In this document: positions 23,990 through 35,507 of the stretch, piece by piece
How positions within the stretch are numbered: position 1 is the first letter of the stretch
Layout: each line of letters begins with the position of its first letter
Assembly (NCBI GenBank): GCA_041483895.1
Contig: JBGPGO010000026.1
Coordinates: 1-36,346 of the forward strand
Source of the DNA: Fimbriimonadia bacterium
GTDB lineage: Bacteria > Armatimonadota > Fimbriimonadia > Fimbriimonadales > JABRVX01
Direction of reading: 5' to 3'
Length of the DNA stretch: 36,346 nt
Translations under genes and position numbers: made by a program
Notes under the pieces: model-generated
What the model was told of the DNA's origin: nothing
The model's database searches: none
What the model saw: the letters and a program-made list of their open reading frames with translations, nothing else

Positions 23990-24823
23990 CTAGAATAGTG
24001 GAGCCGTCGATTCGATACATACAAGCCAGCTATTGCGCTGGCGGAGAGCCGCGCAGCGAGCACCTGCAGTTCGTAGGCTGCCAATGTTATAATCAACCGA
24101 CACTTCGCCATGCTTTCCATCTGCAAGACCATCCAGCAAGTAGCTCAGGCTTCCCGGCGGAAGCACGAAGCCAATGCCCAGTGCCTTTCCCAAGGCGAGG
24201 GACGTAGACGACGATGTGACAACCAGCTTAGTAGGCTGAACGCTGGTCCTCGATGGCTCTCGTTGCGGCCGATCAAGCGACATGAATCTCAGGTACACTA
24301 AATTACTTCCGAAGCAATCTGTGATCGCATTTGAAGCGGCTGCCAAAGACACTGTACACTTCCGTGCAATTACGCCGGGCCAAAACAACTTATCATTGCA
24401 CCCACGATCACCAATTAACTCGTTTACAACCCATTCCGGTACAAGTAGTTTTGACGCAAACGCATTGCAAACGCGTTCATGCTTCCAGTAGTTAGACGGC
24501 ACAGGAAGCTCACCAGATTTTTTCCAAATTAAGAAGTGACACAATTCGTGCGCCAAAGAAAATCGCTCTCGACATGACAAAGGCGCGTTGAAATCCCTTC
24601 GATACAGTCGAATCTTGGGCCGATCAGAGAGAACGAACTCAGCCTCAACGATCGCCTTACTTCTGGCAACGGCTCCAGGATAACATCGATCCCGGCGAGT
24701 ATCAAGCGCACCAAATTCGACGAGGACTTCATACTGTCGTATCAAAGCATCAACCGGAACAGGGATCAATTGCGGATTGCGAATTTCGTTCATGTCGTCG
24801 ACCATTGATTCAAGAGTCGTCAT
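23990..24823 (-). CDS. ImmA/IrrE-family (DUF955/M78) metallopeptidase
   Basis: RERFSLAHELCH (HExxH), then E..CNAFASKLLVP and an HTH-like IARKCTVS..AA. ggag SD and ATG 24823 overlap the upstream stop. Confidence 0.88.
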   Translation of the reverse strand: MTTLESMVDDMNEIRNPQLIPVPVDALIRQYEVLVEFGALDTRRDRCYPGAVARSKAIVEAEFVLSDRPKIRLYRRDFNAPLSCRERFSLAHELCHFLIWKKSGELPVPSNYWKHERVCNAFASKLLVPEWVVNELIGDRGCNDKLFWPGVIARKCTVSLAAASNAITDCFGSNLVYLRFMSLDRPQREPSRTSVQPTKLVVTSSSTSLALGKALGIGFVLPPGSLSYLLDGLADGKHGEVSVDYNIGSLRTAGARCAALRQRNSWLVCIESTAPLF

Positions 24824-27269
24824 CGCTTGACTCCTGTAACCAAGCCCAGATGCTTGGCATTTCTGTTGGAAACCTATCAGCCAAGCCAGCCCCAGCGGTC
24901 CTCGCAGCACTTTGCTGCGGGTGAGGTCGAACATGGAGGCGCCCGGTGGGACCGACGAATCGGTCAAGAAATGGCTGGAGATGCGACAATCTGACGGCGA
25001 CCCTCTTGCCTTCAGCAAGCAACGCGGCGTCTCCACGTTTCGTATCGCCTGCACCTGGAGAAACGATTCCCAAAATCATAACTCTCACGTAGTCCCGTAG
25101 GGCATCTAGATAATCGTCCCGACTCGTTTGATCCAAGCGGCTGACGATTCGAGGATGGAAGTAGAATCCGATGCGCCACAATCTGCGAAAACGCCTTAGC
25201 TGCGCATCAAGGTGGCCGCCAGTCAATGCCGATTCATTCGCGTGCTCGTACGCTTCTAATTCATGAACCTCGCCCCCAACGAAAACCTGAACTTTGGCTA
25301 TCTTGTCATTCATCCTCCGCTCAGGACAATACACAGCCAAATCTCCTGGCACCAACCCGAAGTCGGTTTCTGCTAATCTCAAAGCCCGTTCACGATTCAG
25401 GGGAGGGTCAGCATTGTTGTTGCTATCAGCATAAAGATCCTGTACCTTCCGAATTGCATCTGGATTTGCTTCATCAAAGTTCACTGTCAGCAAATGCTCG
25501 TAATAATCGCGGACCAACAACCTGCGCGCAAGTTCTCGGCGAATTTGCTGCGTCTCAGCATTCTGTGCGCCTGCGCCGGCAATGGGGGCCGAGTCTGCCA
25601 GCTTAGGTAGTAATGCATCCTCTGGTGTATCAAGCATGAAATCTTCAAGATCATGGTTCCAACCGGTACGATCACTTTCCCACTCATTCTGAGCGGAGGG
25701 AGGCCTATTTACGTCCCCAAAAGCAAAGGCAAGGCATCTTTCAAGCATTGCAGTTGCCTTCAGCTTAGTTCTATGAAAAAGCACTGCTTCGCTCAAATGA
25801 TAGCGGCTTTCCAACAGATCCAGAATGCCAGATACACCATCGGTTCTTAGCCTCGGGTGGCGACCAATATTTATTACCAAAGAATCGTCGTATTGCTTCT
25901 TCGACTTTTGACCGGGGACGACTGTCGGCGAAGTTCCGTTCGCTGCCGGAAATGTGTCCGGTTTCGCTCTACCACGTATCTCCATGTATTGGAACAGGCG
26001 ATCTTCTAAGTACTTCGGTTTGCCAACGTGATACCAATCTCTGTGAAGGTAATCAAGTAAGTCAGCACAAATCGTATTACCGACAATGTCACTACACATT
26101 TGGAGCCGAATACCTGCATTAGCGCATCGCACGGAAAATTCCTTCTCGACATCTTCTTCCGAAGGATTCTGCAAGGACCGTCGACATTCGAATCCTAATC
26201 GGTTCACAGGGCTTCGTAATATGATTGACAAAGCGACTTCGAAAGCTCGCACTTTAGGGATCATTGTTCCATCCCAATTATCCTGCCCGAAAGCACCTTC
26301 AATGACTGATGCCAAGCATGGTACCCGTTGTCCGTACCATGTTCTCCTTAACATGATCTTGCGTAATCGAGCTTCTTTGTCGTGCTTATTAAGGAGATGA
26401 AGTTCGTCTTCGATCGAATGGCCGAAGGGTAAGTGGCCGATATCGTGTAGGAGAGCCGCAAGCCGAATATATCGCCGTTCTGTGGCGGTAGGTGGAGCCG
26501 CAAGGTCATACTGATCAACGTTGACACCGATCGCCGGCGCCCCAACTTGCTTCGCGATAGCCCGAACATGATTTTCTCTGATCGCCTTGATCATCCGTTC
26601 GGTGATTTCTACCGTACCAAGTACGTGCTCAAATCGTCTGTGAGTTGCTCCTCGGAAGACGGTGAATGCCAATCCCAACTGGCTGAGTTTGCCAAGTCGC
26701 TGGAATGCCGGATGGTCGATGATCATTCGTTCTTGGTCCGTGAACCAACAGAAGCCAACAACTGGAAGGAAGAACTCGTGGGTTAGCGGATCATCCTTTT
26801 CCTCGGGCGAGGAACCATCGCTGCGGTCGCCGCGATGAGATGCAAGTTCCTTCTGAATCCTGCCACTCGGTGAATCTTGAGGTGCCTGCCAAGCAGTTGG
26901 GGAACTCGACCGTGCGTTCGGTTGTTCGGCAGGTTGGGTAGGGTCGACTTCGGCGACCTCTGGGCTCCCGCTGTCGTCGTTCCCTTCTTGATTATAGGGG
27001 AGCCGAAAAGGCTCGGTCGCGCTTTGCTGGAGCGTTGTCGTGGACAATGGCAATAGATCACGGTGTCGACCAGCCTCCCAATCTTCAGCGAAGAGACGGA
27101 TTGCGCTGATCGTCTTCTTTGAAGGATTTCCCTTGCCATTAAGGTAGTCGCTGAGGGTGCTTGGCCCAATCCCAATCCCCTTCGAGATTTCCTTGAGATT
27201 TAGGCCCGTAGATTGCAGTCCGTTGACAATAATTCGAATCTGCTCCATTTGTCGCTGGTCCATGCTCAT
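24810..27269 (-). CDS. XRE-HTH fused to a SAMHD1-like HD-domain phosphohydrolase (putative dNTP triphosphohydrolase)
   Basis: N-terminal LKEISKGIGIGPSTLSDYLNGK..PS. HD motifs FQRL..LSQLG...VF.GATH.RFEH.LG, AALLHDIGHLPFGH, DLLDYLHRD, R......V.FH. Confidence 0.88.
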   Translation of the reverse strand: MSMDQRQMEQIRIIVNGLQSTGLNLKEISKGIGIGPSTLSDYLNGKGNPSKKTISAIRLFAEDWEAGRHRDLLPLSTTTLQQSATEPFRLPYNQEGNDDSGSPEVAEVDPTQPAEQPNARSSSPTAWQAPQDSPSGRIQKELASHRGDRSDGSSPEEKDDPLTHEFFLPVVGFCWFTDQERMIIDHPAFQRLGKLSQLGLAFTVFRGATHRRFEHVLGTVEITERMIKAIRENHVRAIAKQVGAPAIGVNVDQYDLAAPPTATERRYIRLAALLHDIGHLPFGHSIEDELHLLNKHDKEARLRKIMLRRTWYGQRVPCLASVIEGAFGQDNWDGTMIPKVRAFEVALSIILRSPVNRLGFECRRSLQNPSEEDVEKEFSVRCANAGIRLQMCSDIVGNTICADLLDYLHRDWYHVGKPKYLEDRLFQYMEIRGRAKPDTFPAANGTSPTVVPGQKSKKQYDDSLVINIGRHPRLRTDGVSGILDLLESRYHLSEAVLFHRTKLKATAMLERCLAFAFGDVNRPPSAQNEWESDRTGWNHDLEDFMLDTPEDALLPKLADSAPIAGAGAQNAETQQIRRELARRLLVRDYYEHLLTVNFDEANPDAIRKVQDLYADSNNNADPPLNRERALRLAETDFGLVPGDLAVYCPERRMNDKIAKVQVFVGGEVHELEAYEHANESALTGGHLDAQLRRFRRLWRIGFYFHPRIVSRLDQTSRDDYLDALRDYVRVMILGIVSPGAGDTKRGDAALLAEGKRVAVRLSHLQPFLDRFVGPTGRLHVRPHPQQSAARTAGAGLADRFPTEMPSIWAWLQESSDDDS

Positions 27270-27846: not shown

Positions 27847-28155
27847 CTATCCTTCCAACAATTCGCGGACATCCCTCGCACCGTGCAGCACCCGAAAAAT
27901 GGTAACGCCGTCCTCGCGTTCCTGGTACACAATCAGATAGCTGAACTTCGTCCAAAACCGCAACGGCTTATCCGTCAGGTCCTCACGCACATGCCCGATG
28001 CCGGGAGACTTGGCGAGGCGGCCAAACTCGGCGTCGAGAAAACGGATCATCCGGTCGGCAGCGGCCTTTTCACCGCTTTCGGCCCAGACATAATCATGGA
28101 TTGCAAGAAGGTCGGCTTCCGCCGCCGGTGCTACAGTCAGCTTCTTGCGAGCCAC
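27847..28155 (-). CDS. parE: ParE/RelE-family toxin
   Basis: Motifs AEADL..I.DY, LA.SPGIGH.REDL, YLIVY, I.RVLHGARD. Confidence 0.9.
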   Translation of the reverse strand: MARKKLTVAPAAEADLLAIHDYVWAESGEKAAADRMIRFLDAEFGRLAKSPGIGHVREDLTDKPLRFWTKFSYLIVYQEREDGVTIFRVLHGARDVRELLEG

Positions 28156-28157
28156 TC

Positions 28158-28439
28158 CTACGCGGATGCCCGGTTCTTTGTGGCGTGCCGGCGTTCCGCC
28201 TCGCGAAGCAGCCCTTCAAGCCGTTCTTCCGTCCACTCGATCCCCAACCCCGCATCAATTTCGTCTATGCCCTTCTGGATCTCCCGCCGCAATTCGTCCA
28301 GACCGATCTTCTTTTGGCGATCGCGCTCATACAGCAGCCGCACTGCCTGTTCCACCACCCCGGCGGCATTTTCGTACCCGCCCGTGGCGACCTTTTCCTC
28401 AATCATCCGCTGAATTTCGGCCGGCAATTCGATGTTCAT
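28158..28439 (-). CDS. parD: ParD-family (RHH) antitoxin
   Basis: MNIELP....MIEEKV.TG.Y....VV..A.RLL...LRREIQKG. Directly upstream of parE. Confidence 0.9.
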   Translation of the reverse strand: MNIELPAEIQRMIEEKVATGGYENAAGVVEQAVRLLYERDRQKKIGLDELRREIQKGIDEIDAGLGIEWTEERLEGLLREAERRHATKNRASA

Positions 28440-30151: not shown

Positions 30152-31339
30152 TTACACCGGTGCAAATTCTTTCGACCGTGTGACGGCATGCGTCGGGCCG
30201 ATGGCGGCAAGCGCCGTAGACAGGTCCTCGATCAGGTCCTCCGGATGCTCCAGACCGACCGACAGCCGCACCAGCGAATCGGTGATCCCCGCCCGGTCCC
30301 GCGCCTCCTGCGTCATCGAGGCGTGCGTCTGTTTCGCCGGGATGCACAGCAGCGACCGCACCCCGCCCAGCGACTCGCCCAGCGCGAACAGCTTCGTCGC
30401 CGACGCGAACCGCTTGGCCCCCTCGAAGTCCGTATCCAGTTCGATGGTGACGATGGACCCGAACCCGCTCATCTGCCTCTTCGCCAATTCGTGCTGCGGG
30501 TGCGACGGCAGCCCAGGGAAGATGGCGCGCTTTACCAACGGATGGCCCTCCAAGAAAGTGGCAACGGCGAAGGCGTTCTCCGCCTGTTGCCGCACGCGCA
30601 GACCCAACGTCTTCAGGCCGCGCTGAATCAGCCACGAATCGAACGGCGCCTGCACCGCCCCAATCGCGTTTTGCAAGAACTTCAGCCGCTCGAACAGTTT
30701 GTCGTCGTTGGTGAGACAAGCGCCGCCCAGAACATCCAAATGCCCACTGATATATTTGGTGGTCGAATGGATCACAATGTCCGCGCCCAATTCCAACGGC
30801 CGCTGGAAGATCGGTGTGGCAAAGGTGTTATCTACCACGGTCAGTATGCCATGCTCTTTCGCGATAGCAGATAGCGCCGCGATATCACACAATCCCAACA
30901 ACGGATTGGTAGGCGATTCCAGCCATAGCAGTTTCGTCGATGGCGTGATAGCAGCGCGGACGGCTGATAGGTCCGACAAATCCACGAATGATGCAGAGAT
31001 GCCAAACTCCTTATATACCAGTTCCAATATGCGGAACGTGCCGCCATACACACTGGCAGGGCAGATCACATGATCGCCACTCTTAAGTGTAAGCAGCACA
31101 TTGTTAATAGCAGCCATACCACTGGCAAAACAGAGCGCATATTTCGCCCCCTCCACCGCCGCCAGGCTGACTTCCAGCCGGCTGCGCGAGGGGTTGCCCG
31201 TGCGCGTATAGATGAATCCGCGATCCTGCCCGATTCCGTCCTGAACATAGGTGGATGTTTGATAGATAGGCGAAACGATGGCGCCGGTCAATTCGTCCGG
31301 CTCGTGTCCCGCGTGGATTGCGATGGTTTCCGGTCTCAT
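30152..31339 (-). CDS. metB: Cystathionine gamma-synthase / gamma-lyase (Cys/Met PLP enzyme)
   Basis: Motifs PIYQTSTY, YTRTGNP, ESPTNP, VDNTF, STTKYISGH, GESLGG, RLSVGLE. The synthase call rests on coupling to hom. Confidence 0.8.
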   Translation of the reverse strand: MRPETIAIHAGHEPDELTGAIVSPIYQTSTYVQDGIGQDRGFIYTRTGNPSRSRLEVSLAAVEGAKYALCFASGMAAINNVLLTLKSGDHVICPASVYGGTFRILELVYKEFGISASFVDLSDLSAVRAAITPSTKLLWLESPTNPLLGLCDIAALSAIAKEHGILTVVDNTFATPIFQRPLELGADIVIHSTTKYISGHLDVLGGACLTNDDKLFERLKFLQNAIGAVQAPFDSWLIQRGLKTLGLRVRQQAENAFAVATFLEGHPLVKRAIFPGLPSHPQHELAKRQMSGFGSIVTIELDTDFEGAKRFASATKLFALGESLGGVRSLLCIPAKQTHASMTQEARDRAGITDSLVRLSVGLEHPEDLIEDLSTALAAIGPTHAVTRSKEFAPV

Positions 31340-32622
31340 GATTGTTCTCCTTCGTAGATGGGAAATGCGCGAGGGGTCTCGCTGAGATACTTAAGTCGTT
31401 TCATTTCGGCCAGCGCCTGGGCTATCTGGGACCGCTTGGCGGGATGGGTGAGGATGACGATGTCGCCGCGCCCGTCCCCAATCGCCTCCACCCGGTGCAC
31501 GCCGACCTCCGCCCCGTCCAAAGCCCCGGTCACGGAAGCCAGAACATGCGGCTGGTCCTTAAACGTCACCCGCAGGTAGTAGCGGCTCAGCGAATCGGTC
31601 ACCAGGGTTGGCCGCTCCAAATCGAGCGACCGCCGCCCCGGCACGCAGGCCCGCTCCCCGGTCGCAATGCTCAAAATATCCCCCAGCACCGCCCGCGCCG
31701 TCGGCTTCGGCCCCGCGCCCGGTCCCGCGAAGAACAGTCGCCCGACCGACTCGCCGCGTAGGAGGACGGCATTCGATTCGTCGTTGATGGTGGCGAAGGG
31801 GTTCTCCAGCGGGACTAGGTGCGGAGCAACGCGAAGCTCCAGACCGTCCGCGTGGCGGCGGGCAACGGCCAGGAGCTTGATGGTGTGTCCAAAACCGGCG
31901 GCAAAGTGCAAGTCCTCGGAGGAAACTTGTACAATTCCTTCGGTCTGGACATCGGCGGGTCGGAGTGATGCGTTGAAGGCCTTGCGGGCCAAAATCACCA
32001 ATTTGCAAGCCGAGTCGCTGCCGGAAACATCCGCGGCGGGGTCGGCCTCGGCCAGCCCTTTCTCTTGCGCGAGCCGAACAGCTTCGTCGTACCCAAGGCC
32101 TGAGCGCGCCATTTTGGTCAAAATGAAATTCGTCGTCCCGTTCAATATGGCCGCGATGGAGTGGAACCGCTCCGACGCCAGGTTGTGGTCCAGCGACTGC
32201 AGCACCGGGATGCAGGAGCCGACGCTGGCCTCGTAGGCGAGCGAGCAGCCCCGGTCGTGCGCCAGCTCGGCCAGCTCCTCGCCGTGGTTGGCGAGCACCA
32301 CTTTGTTTGCGGTCACCACGCTCTTGCCCTCGCACAGGCCCTTGCGGATGGCGGTCAGCGCGGTGTCGTGCCCGCCGAGCAGCTCCACCACGATGTCCAG
32401 CTTTTGGCGAAAAACTTCATCTAAACTCTTTGTGAAGGAGAGTTTATTTTGAAGCCCGTTGCGGTCCTTGTCGGTGTCGCGGACCAGGGTTTTGCGGATT
32501 TTCAGCCGGACGCCGGCGGATTCGGCGATTTCCGCTTCCTCTTTGTGGATTAGCTCGGCGAGCGCGGACCCGACGACCCCGCATCCGAGCAGTCCCACGC
32601 TAACCTCTCTCACTTGTGCCAA
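31336..32622 (-). CDS. hom: Homoserine dehydrogenase with C-terminal ACT domain
   Basis: Motifs GLLGCGVVG, VVTANK, YEASV, ILNGTTNFIL, AEADP..DV.G.D, GPGAG. Start is TTG 32622 after ggggga. Confidence 0.93.
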   Translation of the reverse strand: MAQVREVSVGLLGCGVVGSALAELIHKEEAEIAESAGVRLKIRKTLVRDTDKDRNGLQNKLSFTKSLDEVFRQKLDIVVELLGGHDTALTAIRKGLCEGKSVVTANKVVLANHGEELAELAHDRGCSLAYEASVGSCIPVLQSLDHNLASERFHSIAAILNGTTNFILTKMARSGLGYDEAVRLAQEKGLAEADPAADVSGSDSACKLVILARKAFNASLRPADVQTEGIVQVSSEDLHFAAGFGHTIKLLAVARRHADGLELRVAPHLVPLENPFATINDESNAVLLRGESVGRLFFAGPGAGPKPTARAVLGDILSIATGERACVPGRRSLDLERPTLVTDSLSRYYLRVTFKDQPHVLASVTGALDGAEVGVHRVEAIGDGRGDIVILTHPAKRSQIAQALAEMKRLKYLSETPRAFPIYEGEQS

Positions 32623-32636
32623 TTTGTTATCCCCCA

Positions 32637-32671
32637 AATGTGAAAACCGCCCCCCGAGGTCGGGGAGCGGT
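32637..32671 (-). terminator. Intrinsic terminator (attenuator) in the hom leader
   Basis: 10-bp stem accgctcccc/ggggggcggt with one GU pair, followed by tttcacattt, 15 nt before the hom start. Confidence 0.75.
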
Positions 32672-32704
32672 CCGTAAATCGTGCGTTCGTATGTCGCGAA
32701 TCGC

Positions 32705-32812
32705 CTACCTATCGAACCCCCTGCCGAGAAGGGATGAAGCGCCAAAACTCGCCCCGTCGAGCGGGACGCCGGGCATCATCATATCGAGGTGGTAGACAAA
32801 AATATCGTTCAT
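32705..32812 (-). CDS. Putative methionine leader peptide (35 aa)
   Basis: MNDIFVYHLDMMMPGVPLDGASFGASSLLGRGFDR*, with ATGATGATG at 32782-32774. Confidence 0.65.
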   Translation of the reverse strand: MNDIFVYHLDMMMPGVPLDGASFGASSLLGRGFDR

Positions 32813-32829
32813 ATCTCTCGTTGGGGGCT

Positions 32830-32859
32830 AGTATAAACGATCGGGCCTGTGTTTGTCAA
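32830..32859 (-). promoter_or_regulatory. Sigma70 promoter of leader-hom-metB
   Basis: TTGACA-18 nt-TATACT. Confidence 0.75.
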
Positions 32860-32903: not shown

Positions 32904-34295
32904 TTATTCCCGTTCTGCAGAAGCCTTCACATGCTCCATGGTAGCTGCATCGACCAAACTGCGGCCGAGCATTATCAAAATGGGATCTTCGAATCTTGCG
33001 TCGTGCCAGTTCGTATCCCGAAAGTCGGGCTGAGTGATTGGCAAAGTGGCGGACTCAATAAATCCCTTTGCCTGATGCTGCCATGGGACATCCTGCGTGT
33101 CAAAGTCCAATCCACCCAGCCAAGTACCAGTTAGATCGGAATCGCGAAAGGACGCTCCCTCAATCGAAGCGCCATGAAGACAGGCACGATGAAGCTTTGC
33201 GCCAAACAGATTCGATCGTTGAAGGTACGACCGCAGGAGGAAGCTCCCCTGCAAGTGCGCTCCCTTCATGAAGCACTCCGAAAGATCAACTCCACACATG
33301 AAGCATCCTACCATCGGGTGCGCTTCTGCCAAATGCAGGTCTTGAGATCTGTGGTCAGCTGCATATCTTGCCAACTTCCTCAGAACGCCAGCCAAAATCC
33401 AACTTGTGTCGATCAAACGGCCAGCACAGGTTGATATCTCCTTCGCTGCCGTCGCCCAATGTAATTCCTCACCGATTGTCCAATGCTTTTCAAGCGATGA
33501 GGAGAATTCGGGCACATTAATACAGAGGGCAAGAATTCGAAGGTCCATCTCTACTGTGTCAGTGAACCTCGCCAACGGAACGATGCGCTTCAAGTCACCA
33601 ATTGAGATTCGACCTGCGTTCCGATGGAGCACCGCGGCTATCGACTCCAGGAACGCCCAAAATGCGGATCTATTCAAGTCTGCATATTCGTGCAACAGTA
33701 CTTCTGTGAGCGTGTTCCAATCCGTGGATGCTGCATGTGTAAGATAGTGAAGTACCGACACTATTGCCGCCCGAACATTCTTGTCCTTCTCGCACAAAAG
33801 TGCCCTACATAGTTGCTCGACTCCTCGCCGATAGTATGGATAGTCCAAATACACCACATATGAGGGCCAGCGGCCACTAGGATATTGAGCCAGTGCTAAC
33901 AGCCGATCAGTCGCTCCAGCCCGGGTCCCCGCGTCGACGTTGGCCAGGCAATCCAGGATTTCGCTAAATCGCTCCTCCATTTGGCGTCGCCTGAAATGGT
34001 CCTCTGTTTGAGAACGATTAAGCAAGTAAGTCACTAGCACGCCGATTGCGGCAAAGAAGGTTGCCAAACCTGCTGGAAATTGCAACGCCCAAAGAAGCCA
34101 GGTCGCAATTACAACGATGCCTGCAAGTAATATCCAACCCAAATTCCGATCGATGACTATTCCGAGACTAGTAAGGAACCGTCGGAAGCGGCCACCTTCC
34201 GGCCGTCGCCACATCGCCATCATCCTCCCGGAAACCGCATCTTTACGACGAGGATTCGGAACCGAGTAACTTGAATCTGGCTTCGGCCTTTTCAT
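32904..34295 (-). CDS. Membrane-anchored pentapeptide-repeat protein
   Basis: Two TM helices, an ERFSEI...L......R.GA helical region, and A(H/N/K)L.G(A/S).L pentapeptide repeats. Start uncertain (34295 or 34214). Confidence 0.8.
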   Translation of the reverse strand: MKRPKPDSSYSVPNPRRKDAVSGRMMAMWRRPEGGRFRRFLTSLGIVIDRNLGWILLAGIVVIATWLLWALQFPAGLATFFAAIGVLVTYLLNRSQTEDHFRRRQMEERFSEILDCLANVDAGTRAGATDRLLALAQYPSGRWPSYVVYLDYPYYRRGVEQLCRALLCEKDKNVRAAIVSVLHYLTHAASTDWNTLTEVLLHEYADLNRSAFWAFLESIAAVLHRNAGRISIGDLKRIVPLARFTDTVEMDLRILALCINVPEFSSSLEKHWTIGEELHWATAAKEISTCAGRLIDTSWILAGVLRKLARYAADHRSQDLHLAEAHPMVGCFMCGVDLSECFMKGAHLQGSFLLRSYLQRSNLFGAKLHRACLHGASIEGASFRDSDLTGTWLGGLDFDTQDVPWQHQAKGFIESATLPITQPDFRDTNWHDARFEDPILIMLGRSLVDAATMEHVKASAERE

Positions 34296-34380
34296 TTGGT
34301 GGCCAAGTCCTTCCAAACATCGGCAATCACTCCGAAGATTAGAGGTGTTATCTCTTTGGCCATCTGCATTCGCGCAATGT

Positions 34381-35370
34381 TCACTTACGAAGAATGACTT
34401 TCGCCGCTTCCACATTGGTGGCCAATTCGACCTTAATATCTTCGGACATGGCCGCCCGTTGGAATAGCAAGACCGCCTGTTCAAACAATAGGATGTCAAT
34501 TTCGTGCGCGTGACTAGTGAAAGGATCCTGGAGAAAGATCACTTTCTGGCACAATTCTCTAACGACCGCAGCGGCAATCTGAACATCCCCACCGCGCGGT
34601 CCAGATTGGCACAGCCGGACCTTACTAGCGACCTCCTTCGCATCGCGACCGGCGGCGACGGCAAACTTCTTTACCCAGGCGCCAGTGGTGCCAGTCGTGA
34701 GAATGGCATCGTATTTATCAAAAATTGTGCGCAGATGCTCGACCACGAAGCAGCATAGAGCCAACTTCATACCATCATGTGCTATCAGCGCAAGCACTTT
34801 CATGTCCTTCGTGAGCCCTTCCAATGGAAGATAATCAGGAGGGGGCCTCTTATCAAATATGGGATGTTCGCGCCTCCGTAACTGGCCGAGCCAAGAACCG
34901 ACGGCAGCGCGAGCCGTATGAATATCGGATGCAATGAATACCTCATGCACATTGGCTTCTCGGCGAAGCACCATACTATCTGGCTTTCCAATTACATCGG
35001 CCCAGTCGGTCAAGTGGATAATTCCATCCAACCGACCCTCGACAAGCTCGTACGTCAACTCTATCATGCCTTCGATAGAGGACCCTACTGACACCAAACC
35101 CTCTCGAATCGTCTTTCTCCAACGAGCTAGATCGGCCTCATCGTCGATTGGGAAATCGGTTCCCTCTCGAATGGCTTCTCTATCTACATTATCCAGATCG
35201 CGTTCAACAACCGACATCACATACTCGTGCGTTCTGCCGGTACTGATTACTTCGAAGTGATTGCACAGAGGATACAAATGACGATAAATAAAGTCGTCTA
35301 CTTCACTTGGTCTATTTGCTCGGTATTGCGGTGTACTGATAAAAGCTATTCGCCCGAATTTCTGTGCCAT
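34381..35370 (-). CDS. Tandem methylglyoxal-synthase-domain protein
   Basis: C-terminal domain has ALIAHD..K, TGTTG, SGP.GGD.QI, IFLQDP...HAHE.D, LATN. N-terminal domain is a degenerate copy. SD gggagg. Confidence 0.85.
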   Translation of the reverse strand: MAQKFGRIAFISTPQYRANRPSEVDDFIYRHLYPLCNHFEVISTGRTHEYVMSVVERDLDNVDREAIREGTDFPIDDEADLARWRKTIREGLVSVGSSIEGMIELTYELVEGRLDGIIHLTDWADVIGKPDSMVLRREANVHEVFIASDIHTARAAVGSWLGQLRRREHPIFDKRPPPDYLPLEGLTKDMKVLALIAHDGMKLALCCFVVEHLRTIFDKYDAILTTGTTGAWVKKFAVAAGRDAKEVASKVRLCQSGPRGGDVQIAAAVVRELCQKVIFLQDPFTSHAHEIDILLFEQAVLLFQRAAMSEDIKVELATNVEAAKVILRK

Positions 35371-35507
35371 AGGTCCCTCCCTCAATCATCCCTTGCCTTT
35401 GCCAGCGCATCGAATATATTCCGTGCATCTCAAACAGTTGGACGTCAGACCTAACTGCTTACTGAATGCAAGCTGAAATGGTGCAAGTAGAATTACTAAC
35501 ATCGACG

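What the first reader, a model, noticed from the sequence alone, without database searches (positions are those of the whole stretch)
32637..32859. Candidate methionine-sensing leader-peptide attenuator upstream of hom-metB
Seen, in order on the minus strand: a near-consensus promoter, a 35-aa ORF with three consecutive ATG codons (codons 11-13), a hairpin just after them (cgtcccg/cggggcg), a second hairpin (ccct/aggg), an intrinsic terminator, then hom-metB. The G-run in the second hairpin could pair instead with the C-rich 5' arm of the terminator. No SAM riboswitch or T-box motif is visible. Established: ribosome-mediated attenuation with cognate codon runs controls the trp, his, thr, leu, ilv and phe operons, while met genes usually use MetJ/MetR, SAM riboswitches or T-boxes. 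Inference: stalling at MMM under elongator Met-tRNA shortage allows readthrough.
Basis: partly seen in the sequence, partly recalled or inferred. Interest (0 to 1): 0.85.

Follow-up and report, generated by a model that had tools for sequence, protein, structure and literature searches.

The report
Methionine leader-peptide switch before hom-metB
A tiny reading frame with clustered methionine codons and competing RNA hairpins sits in front of two predicted methionine-pathway genes in three related uncultured bacteria, and it likely turns those genes on when ribosomes stall for lack of methionine, a type of switch already proposed in Campylobacter and Streptomyces but, in the papers I found, not tested by mutation.

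Summary
The window has a promoter, a 35-codon ORF with Met-Met-Met, a hairpin, a terminator and then hom plus a metB-like gene. Both other genomes of the family have the same layout: 35 codons, three internal Met codons, the same hairpin in the same frame, and 5 of 6 codon changes between them synonymous. None of 26 other same-order hom loci or 80 distant ones has such an ORF. It contains the leader's stop codon, and one change covaries across antiterminator and terminator. Folding predicts that only a ribosome reaching about codon 28-32 frees the terminator. Best reading: a Met-tRNA-sensing ribosomal attenuator (0.7). Caveats: there are only three full leaders and no RNA data. The switch must be kinetic. 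One relative lacks a U-tract but has a strong anti-SD pairing. metB is not firmly assigned. The idea is not new: MetL leaders are proposed for C. jejuni metBA (PMC3847290, PMC11955535) and S. lividans metNIQ (PMC8079986), and this scan noted Met leaders in other genomes before.

The parts
32830..32859 (-). sigma70-type promoter, TTGACA-N18-TATACT
   Evidence: TTGACA/TATAAT at the same place in G001 and G002; TTGACA kept, with different spacer letters, in the loose ends of contigs from runs X16 and X19
32705..32812 (-). 35-codon leader ORF (translation inferred; weak SD, about 11-nt 5' UTR)
   Evidence: 35-codon GTG-start ORFs in G001 and G002; 5 of 6 codon differences between G001 and G002 synonymous
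32774..32782 (-). control codons Met11-Met12-Met13
   Evidence: Met11 and Met13 align with Met12 and Met14 of G001/G002, which have a third Met at codon 9
32750..32768 (-). hairpin A with invariant CUCGA loop, just after the Met codons; likely an RNA polymerase pause or ribosome brake (inferred)
   Evidence: -10.8 kcal/mol; 21 of 21 cells paired in three sequences, 1 double and 1 single change, not above the shuffle control (168/500)
   Evidence: duplex with the SD region -8.9 kcal/mol here, -17.1 in G001, -19.4 in G002
32660..32727 (-). predicted antiterminator: leader codons 29-35 and the stop codon pair with the spacer and the terminator 5' arm
   Evidence: -26.9 kcal/mol, 25 pairs; lost in folds when a ribosome reaches codon 28-32; an equivalent stem in G001/G002 has a G-C to A-U double change
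32636..32673 (-). terminator-like hairpin and U-rich tail
   Evidence: -25.0 kcal/mol; 5 T in the 9 nt after the last G-C pair, with a leading run of 4; only 5 of 64 gene-end hairpins of contigs C1-C5 have a leading run of 4 or more
32629..32635 (-). Shine-Dalgarno-like site of hom
   Evidence: GGGAGGA at the same place in G001/G002
31336..32622 (-). hom, homoserine dehydrogenase (TTG start inferred from the ATG starts of the orthologues)
30152..31339 (-). metB-like PLP enzyme (cystathionine gamma-synthase or gamma-lyase), overlapping the hom stop codon
   Evidence: same order in G001 and G002

Best explanation
This leader has a conserved 35-codon Met-cluster ORF whose end overlaps a predicted antiterminator, and it is likely a ribosome-controlled attenuator that would let hom-metB be transcribed when charged elongator Met-tRNA is scarce. 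Steps: (1) shown: promoter, ORF, Met codons, hairpins, and their conservation in three genomes. (2) Predicted by folding: as the RNA is made, codons 29-35 and the stop codon pair with the terminator's 5' arm. (3) Inferred: with enough Met the ribosome passes codons 11-13, reaches codon 28-36, melts that stem, and the terminator forms. (4) Inferred: without Met-tRNA the ribosome waits at codons 11-13, the stem persists long enough for RNA polymerase to pass the U-tract, and the operon is read. (5) Inferred: hairpin A synchronises polymerase and ribosome. In G001/G002 the OFF state may act partly or mainly by hiding the hom SD.
For: Conserved architecture in 2 of 2 same-family genomes, whose hom is 68% identical. 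Same ORF length, same frame through hairpin A, and stop codon 26-31 nt before the terminator. 3 of 29 same-order hom loci (the three family members) and 0 of 80 distant hom loci have a short ORF with 3 Met in 6 codons. A pattern joining the Met codons to hairpin A hits 3 of 151 class genomes, each time at this locus. G001 versus G002: 5 synonymous and 1 non-synonymous change, where 27% of possible changes are synonymous (binomial about 0.007 by hand, ignoring transition bias). One synonymous change (codon 34) converts a G-C antiterminator pair to A-U; its partner lies in the terminator 5' arm, whose own partner in the 3' arm also changes (read). Mean pairing of the terminator 5' arm with upstream RNA is 0.6-0.8 with a ribosome at the Met codons and 0.00 with a ribosome at the stop, in all three genomes. 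In peat run X16, 2 of 5 differences fall in predicted loops and 2 change codons 3-4 to the Glu-Val seen in G001/G002. The genome uses the same design for leucine: a 40-codon Leu-rich ORF and terminator before leuB. Gene starts in G000 peak 6-9 nt after -10 hexamers (58, 28, 22, 19 against about 12 elsewhere), so the near-leaderless GTG of G001/G002 is usable.
Against: Only three full leaders, two of them from one genus, so the covariation rests on very few events (control: 168/500). Once the whole hairpin is made, the terminator wins at equilibrium in every ribosome state (0.87-0.99), so readthrough needs a kinetic trap that I could not simulate. The antiterminator is not clearly better than shuffled spacers: 52, 12 and 57 of 300 shuffles pair the arm as well, and its energy is no better than the shuffles. 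In G000 the no-ribosome and stalled states barely differ. G002 has no U-run after the hairpin and G001 a weak one, although 20 of 22 sampled gene-end hairpins in G002 also have fewer than 5 T. The leader start in G000 has only a weak SD. No MetX, MetA or ThrB over cut-off was found in the 3 genomes, and no ThrH in G000 by tblastn, so the route from homoserine to Met is incomplete and the second gene may be a gamma-lyase. The X16 differences come from contigs of depth under 3 and may be errors; one of them breaks an anti-SD pair.
Confidence: 0.7

Rival explanations
1. Same Met-codon sensor, but the output is translational: after the ribosome runs through, the big hairpin forms and brings leader codons 27-31 onto the hom Shine-Dalgarno site, which blocks hom translation (Rho may then stop transcription). 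Stalling keeps the antiterminator-like fold, which leaves the SD free.
For: Anti-SD duplex of -17.1 (G001) and -19.4 (G002) kcal/mol. SD paired 0.97-0.98 in most full-length G002 folds with the ribosome at codons 9-20. No U-run in G002. Rho is present in 3 of 3 genomes. A translational precedent exists for Cys in mycobacteria (10.1101/834739, abstract).
Against: In the window the duplex is weak (-8.9), SD pairing is about 0.4-0.5 in all states, the U-tail is among the better ones of this genome, and the X16 variant G32632A breaks one duplex pair. At equilibrium the SD of G002 is hidden in the stalled state too.
Confidence: 0.12
2. The nascent peptide itself senses a metabolite (SAM, homocysteine or Met) and arrests the ribosome near the stop codon, holding the antiterminator open so that the terminator forms when the product is plentiful.
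For: Synonymous bias between G001 and G002. Residues kept across genera with different codons: Phe5, Gly30, Arg35, and Val4 in X16. The ORF is longer than needed for the Met codons alone.
Against: Only 9 of 35 residues match between genera in a hand alignment, and BLASTP finds no alignment. Most matches coincide with RNA stems. The clustered Met codons already explain the design.
Confidence: 0.07
3. A multivalent or general sensor: Thr plus Met in G001/G002, or translation speed in general, rather than Met specifically.
For: G001/G002 leaders have 6 Thr codons, 4 of them in codons 2-11, and hom feeds both Thr and Met (established pathway knowledge). Any stall before codon 24-27 keeps the antiterminator in the folds.
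Against: The window's leader has no Thr codon. Met is the only enriched residue shared by all three leaders.
Confidence: 0.05
4. The ORF is incidental. The leader is a protein-binding or uncatalogued riboswitch-like RNA, or a fixed leaky terminator.
For: The invariant CUCGA loop could be a recognition site. The antiterminator is not clearly above shuffles.
Against: Equal ORF length, conserved frame, Met cluster and synonymous bias. No Rfam match. Little sequence conservation outside the Met codons and hairpin A.
Confidence: 0.06

Closest known systems
Campylobacter jejuni MetL before metBA (cj1727c-1726c); PMC3847290 (passages and supplementary Fig. S7 text seen), PMC11955535 (passages seen)
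   Same: Short ORF with Met codons on a leader RNA before a met operon, proposed to antiterminate when ribosomes stall. dRNA-seq shows a short RNA, and retapamulin profiling shows its start is used.
   Different: [quoted passage not shown] The passages I saw give no antiterminator model and no mutational test. Here there are three internal Met codons, a modelled antiterminator with one covarying change, and hom as first gene.
Streptomyces lividans metL before metNIQ; PMC8079986 (passages seen)
   Same: Leaderless short ORF with Met codons before Met genes, followed by hairpins without a typical U-tract, as in G002.
   Different: Controls an importer; rich in Thr and Cys; termination mode declared unclear.
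Classical leader-peptide attenuators (trpL, hisL, thrL, leuL, ilv, pheL of enterobacteria, recalled; Listeria Rli60 before ilv-leu, PMC5864092, passages seen)
   Same: Cognate codon cluster, antiterminator sharing a strand with the terminator, stop codon placed so that a finishing ribosome blocks the antiterminator. In Rli60 too the antiterminator (-10.3) is weaker than the terminator (-17.1).
   Different: Specificity is Met. In G000 no strong protector helix is predicted, so a start-codon mutant would not super-attenuate as Rli60 mutants do. The control codons lie 15 or more codons before the antiterminator.
Mycobacterial polycysteine leaderless sORFs; 10.1101/834739 (abstract seen)
   Same: Near-leaderless sORF with sulfur amino-acid codons, stalling switches downstream genes on, possible SD sequestration.
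   Different: There the stalled ribosome directly blocks the SD-hiding duplex. Here the anti-SD lies downstream of the stall site.

Membership tests
Classical leader-peptide transcription attenuator | Short ORF in the 5' leader, enriched in codons of the pathway's end product | tested here: met
   the end product is Met only if the metB label holds
Classical leader-peptide transcription attenuator | Intrinsic terminator (hairpin plus U-tract) between the ORF and the first gene | tested here: inconclusive
   Met in the window (-25 kcal/mol, TTTTCACATTT); weak tail in G001 and none in G002, whose gene-end hairpins are mostly U-poor
Classical leader-peptide transcription attenuator | Mutually exclusive antiterminator that a ribosome at the stop codon would block and a ribosome at the control codons would not | tested here: met
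   in three genomes, as predicted folds; shuffle control weak (52, 12, 57 of 300)
Classical leader-peptide transcription attenuator | Protector (1:2) helix giving super-attenuation without translation | tested here: inconclusive
   Slight in G001/G002 (arm pairing 0.10 and 0.06 without a ribosome against 0.79 and 0.73 stalled, 4-5 nt before the hairpin end); not seen in G000 (0.39 against 0.38)
Classical leader-peptide transcription attenuator | Leader is translated and readthrough depends on the cognate aminoacyl-tRNA | not testable with these tools
   needs Ribo-seq, Term-seq or reporters
SAM riboswitches and other Rfam leaders | Match to an Rfam model | tested here: not met
   RF00162 in 0 of 3 genomes
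T-box | Stem I specifier and T-box bulge (RF00230) | tested here: not met
   0 of 3 genomes
C. jejuni MetL sequence family | Sequence homology to the 20-aa MetL | not tested
   compared by eye only with the Fig. S7 text; no likeness seen

The most novel reading that the evidence does not exclude
The leader peptide is more than a codon counter: it is a bacterial arrest peptide that senses a methionine-pathway metabolite such as SAM (a parallel to plant cystathionine gamma-synthase CGS1, recalled), and the same switch has changed its output from transcription termination in one genus to Shine-Dalgarno masking in the sister genus.
Probability: 0.08. Interest if true: 0.8.

Novelty: new member of a known kind. 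Interest (0 to 1): 0.48.

Why it matters
Methionine is usually said to be sensed through SAM riboswitches, T-boxes or MetJ/MetR-type proteins (recalled). Met leader peptides have been proposed in two lineages, but I found no mutational proof. This element adds a third phylum and gives a complete, testable wiring diagram: three internal AUG codons, a stop codon inside the antiterminator, and a covarying pair. It would show directly whether elongator Met-tRNA shortage can be read while initiation, which also needs Met, still goes on. The contrast between the U-tailed version and the anti-SD version could show how an attenuator moves between transcriptional and translational output. The organisms appear to be uncultured, so tests need a surrogate host.

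Tried and rejected
The first metagenome scan confirmed none of 302 stretches; the second gave 1 contig that lacks the upstream part. A clade-specific hom pattern hit 1 of 401 phylum genomes, G000 itself; G001 and G002 were not in that sample. Ten close hom proteins (67-72%) exist, but their DNA context was not obtainable for most. RNA evidence: no RNA holder listed. Contigs of 7 runs were laid: X4 and X15 repeat the window's letters, X19 has 5 differences that were not listed, and X1 and X18 add nothing. RNAalifold on the MAFFT alignment was not used as evidence, because the alignment is out of register after codon 21. No covariance model was built, since three sequences are too few. Other Met-related genes (metH, metY-like, other PLP paralogues, thrC, trpE) showed no Met-rich leader in the 23 loci inspected by eye. 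The seven metB-hom loci of another family in the order have short leaders without one. Equilibrium folding of the full leader does not separate ON from OFF. Literature: 9 searches found proposals but no mutational test of a Met-codon attenuator; subscription papers are not covered, and the review asked for was not held. Of the supplements of PMC3847290, 10 files were not searched.

Full report
Observation. The overlapping next gene belongs to the cystathionine gamma-synthase/lyase family; its best score, 497 bits to PRK07811, is under the 513 cut-off, and solved gamma-lyases score as well as gamma-synthases. Rfam has nothing in the leader. MMM is unlikely by chance (P 0.0002 per 34 codons), and it occurs in 1 of 256 short ORFs behind strong promoter matches genome-wide.

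Context. The closest named hom relative is labelled Fimbriimonadaceae bacterium, which points to Armatimonadota. The genome set holds two other members of the family, G001 and G002, from one other genus, with hom 68% identical. Both have hom-metB with the same kind of leader: TTGACA and TATAAT boxes, a GTG start 9 nt after the -10 box, 35 codons with Met at 9, 12 and 14, the same GCTCGAC hairpin read in the same frame, the stop codon 26-27 nt before a -29 kcal/mol hairpin (31 nt in the window), and an SD 18-21 nt later. Of 29 same-order hom loci, only these three have a short ORF with 3 Met in 6 codons within 1500 nt upstream; L030 was left out because it is cut off, and one negative locus, L024, comes from the unpublished genome G036, on which no claim depends. 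None of 80 distant hom loci has one within 350 nt. A pattern joining two Met codons to hairpin A hits 3 of 151 class genomes, only at this locus. The element is therefore confined, among the genomes searched, to this small family.

Is the ORF real? G001 and G002 differ at 6 codons, and 5 of the changes are synonymous, where 27% of possible changes would be. Across genera a hand alignment keeps 9 of 35 residues, among them Met11, Met13, Leu18-Asp19, Leu28, Gly30 and the last Arg; three are kept with different codons. BLASTP sees no alignment, so the peptide is poorly conserved overall. Low-depth peat contigs (run X16) differ from the window at 5 places: one in the terminator loop, one in the apical loop of the antiterminator, one in the SD, and two that turn codons 3-4 into Glu-Val as in G001/G002. 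Loose ends in X16 and X19 keep TTGACA while the spacer changes. Contigs of X4 and X15 repeat the window's letters, so the assembly is sound. In G000, gene starts pile up 6-9 nt after -10 hexamers, so near-leaderless starts are normal in this lineage. The window's own start, 17 nt after the -10 box, has only a weak SD.

How it would work. Folding the nascent RNA up to the terminator loop gives a long interrupted stem, 32727-32660 (-26.9 kcal/mol, 25 pairs), that pairs leader codons 29-35 and the stop codon with the spacer and the terminator 5' arm. It survives a ribosome modelled at any codon up to about 24 and is gone by codon 32, in all three genomes. Mean pairing of the arm with upstream RNA is 0.6-0.8 with a ribosome on the Met codons and 0.00 with a ribosome on the stop. 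In G001 versus G002, the synonymous change at codon 34 turns an antiterminator G-C pair into A-U; its partner lies in the terminator 5' arm, and the base facing it in the 3' arm changes too (read). That single three-way change is the best structural evidence. So plentiful Met would let the ribosome strip the antiterminator and allow termination, and a stall at Met11-13 would leave it in place. Hairpin A pairs in 21 of 21 cells, with one double change, and lies where a pause hairpin would; that role is inferred.

Results against this reading. When the terminator is fully made it wins at equilibrium in every state, so the ON state must be a kinetic trap, which I could not simulate. Listeria Rli60 also has a weaker antiterminator than terminator and works (PMC5864092, passages), so this does not rule the model out. 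Shuffled spacers pair the arm as well in 52, 12 and 57 of 300 trials. G002 has no U-run after the hairpin. U-poor tails are its norm (2 of 22 sampled gene-end hairpins have 5 T or more, against 27 of 64 in G000), but G001 and G002 also have a strong duplex between leader codons 27-31 and the hom SD (-17.1 and -19.4, against -8.9 in the window), which allows a translational output; Rho is present. No MetX, MetA or ThrB over cut-off was found in the three genomes (95-98% complete). ThrH is present in G002 but was not found in G000, so the step between hom and the PLP enzyme is unexplained. G001/G002 leaders also carry 6 Thr codons. No SAM-I or T-box match exists in the three genomes; other SAM classes were tested only on the window and the leader loci.

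Comparison with what is known. It works like a classical leader-peptide attenuator and meets the sequence-level features in the window; translation and regulation are untested. The same genome has a Leu-rich 40-codon leader and terminator before leuB. A Met version is already in print as a proposal. Porcelli et al. 2013 named a 20-aa MetL before C. jejuni metBA on a short RNA (PMC3847290, passages and Fig. S7 text). A 2025 Ribo-seq study detected its start and added a Met-rich sORF before a D-methionine transporter (PMC11955535, passages). A metL was listed before S. lividans metNIQ with unclear termination (PMC8079986, passages). A 2005 survey of Actinobacteria found none for methionine (PMC1262725, passages); PMC13236596 does not mention methionine (passages). 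Nine searches found no mutational test. Earlier notes of this scan report Met leaders in several other genomes (unchecked), none as look-alikes of this sequence. Several of those notes say that no Met version is published, which contradict.

Verdict. A real, family-restricted regulatory leader, most likely a Met-sensing ribosomal attenuator (0.7). It is a new, apparently independent member of a proposed but unproven sub-type. Interest 0.48.

Noticed in passing
G000:C7:163703-163930 (+), not in the window: Consensus promoter, 40-codon ORF with alternating Leu codons, terminator, then leuB: a leucine leader attenuator in the same genome. No leuB over cut-off in G001/G002.
   Followed up: partly
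G000, G001, G002 whole genomes: No MetX, MetA, ThrB or acetolactate synthase large subunit over cut-off. G002 (and by likeness G001) has thrH-thrC followed by a 473-aa divergent sulfhydrylase-like gene (L148, L149), which may use O-phosphohomoserine; G000 has no clear orthologue of either thrH or that gene.
   Followed up: partly
G000 genome-wide: Gene starts peak 6-9 nt after -10 hexamers, which suggests frequent leaderless mRNAs in this lineage.
   Followed up: partly
G002, 400 kb sample (L155-L174): Strong gene-end hairpins mostly lack U-tracts (20 of 22 have fewer than 5 T in 9 nt), unlike G000.
   Followed up: partly
window 32904-35385 (-): Upstream neighbours: a membrane protein with pentapeptide repeats and a 334-aa protein with a methylglyoxal-synthase-like domain; not syntenic with G001/G002, and lower in GC than hom-metB.
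   Followed up: no
window 27847-28439 (-) and 24810-27269 (-): By sequence look only: a ParD/ParE-like antitoxin-toxin pair, and an 819-aa protein with an N-terminal helix-turn-helix and an HD-type phosphohydrolase region (labels recalled, not tested).
   Followed up: no
G000, many contigs: A recurring intergenic palindrome of the form CCCTTCACA-loop-TGTGAAGGG, like a REP element.
   Followed up: no
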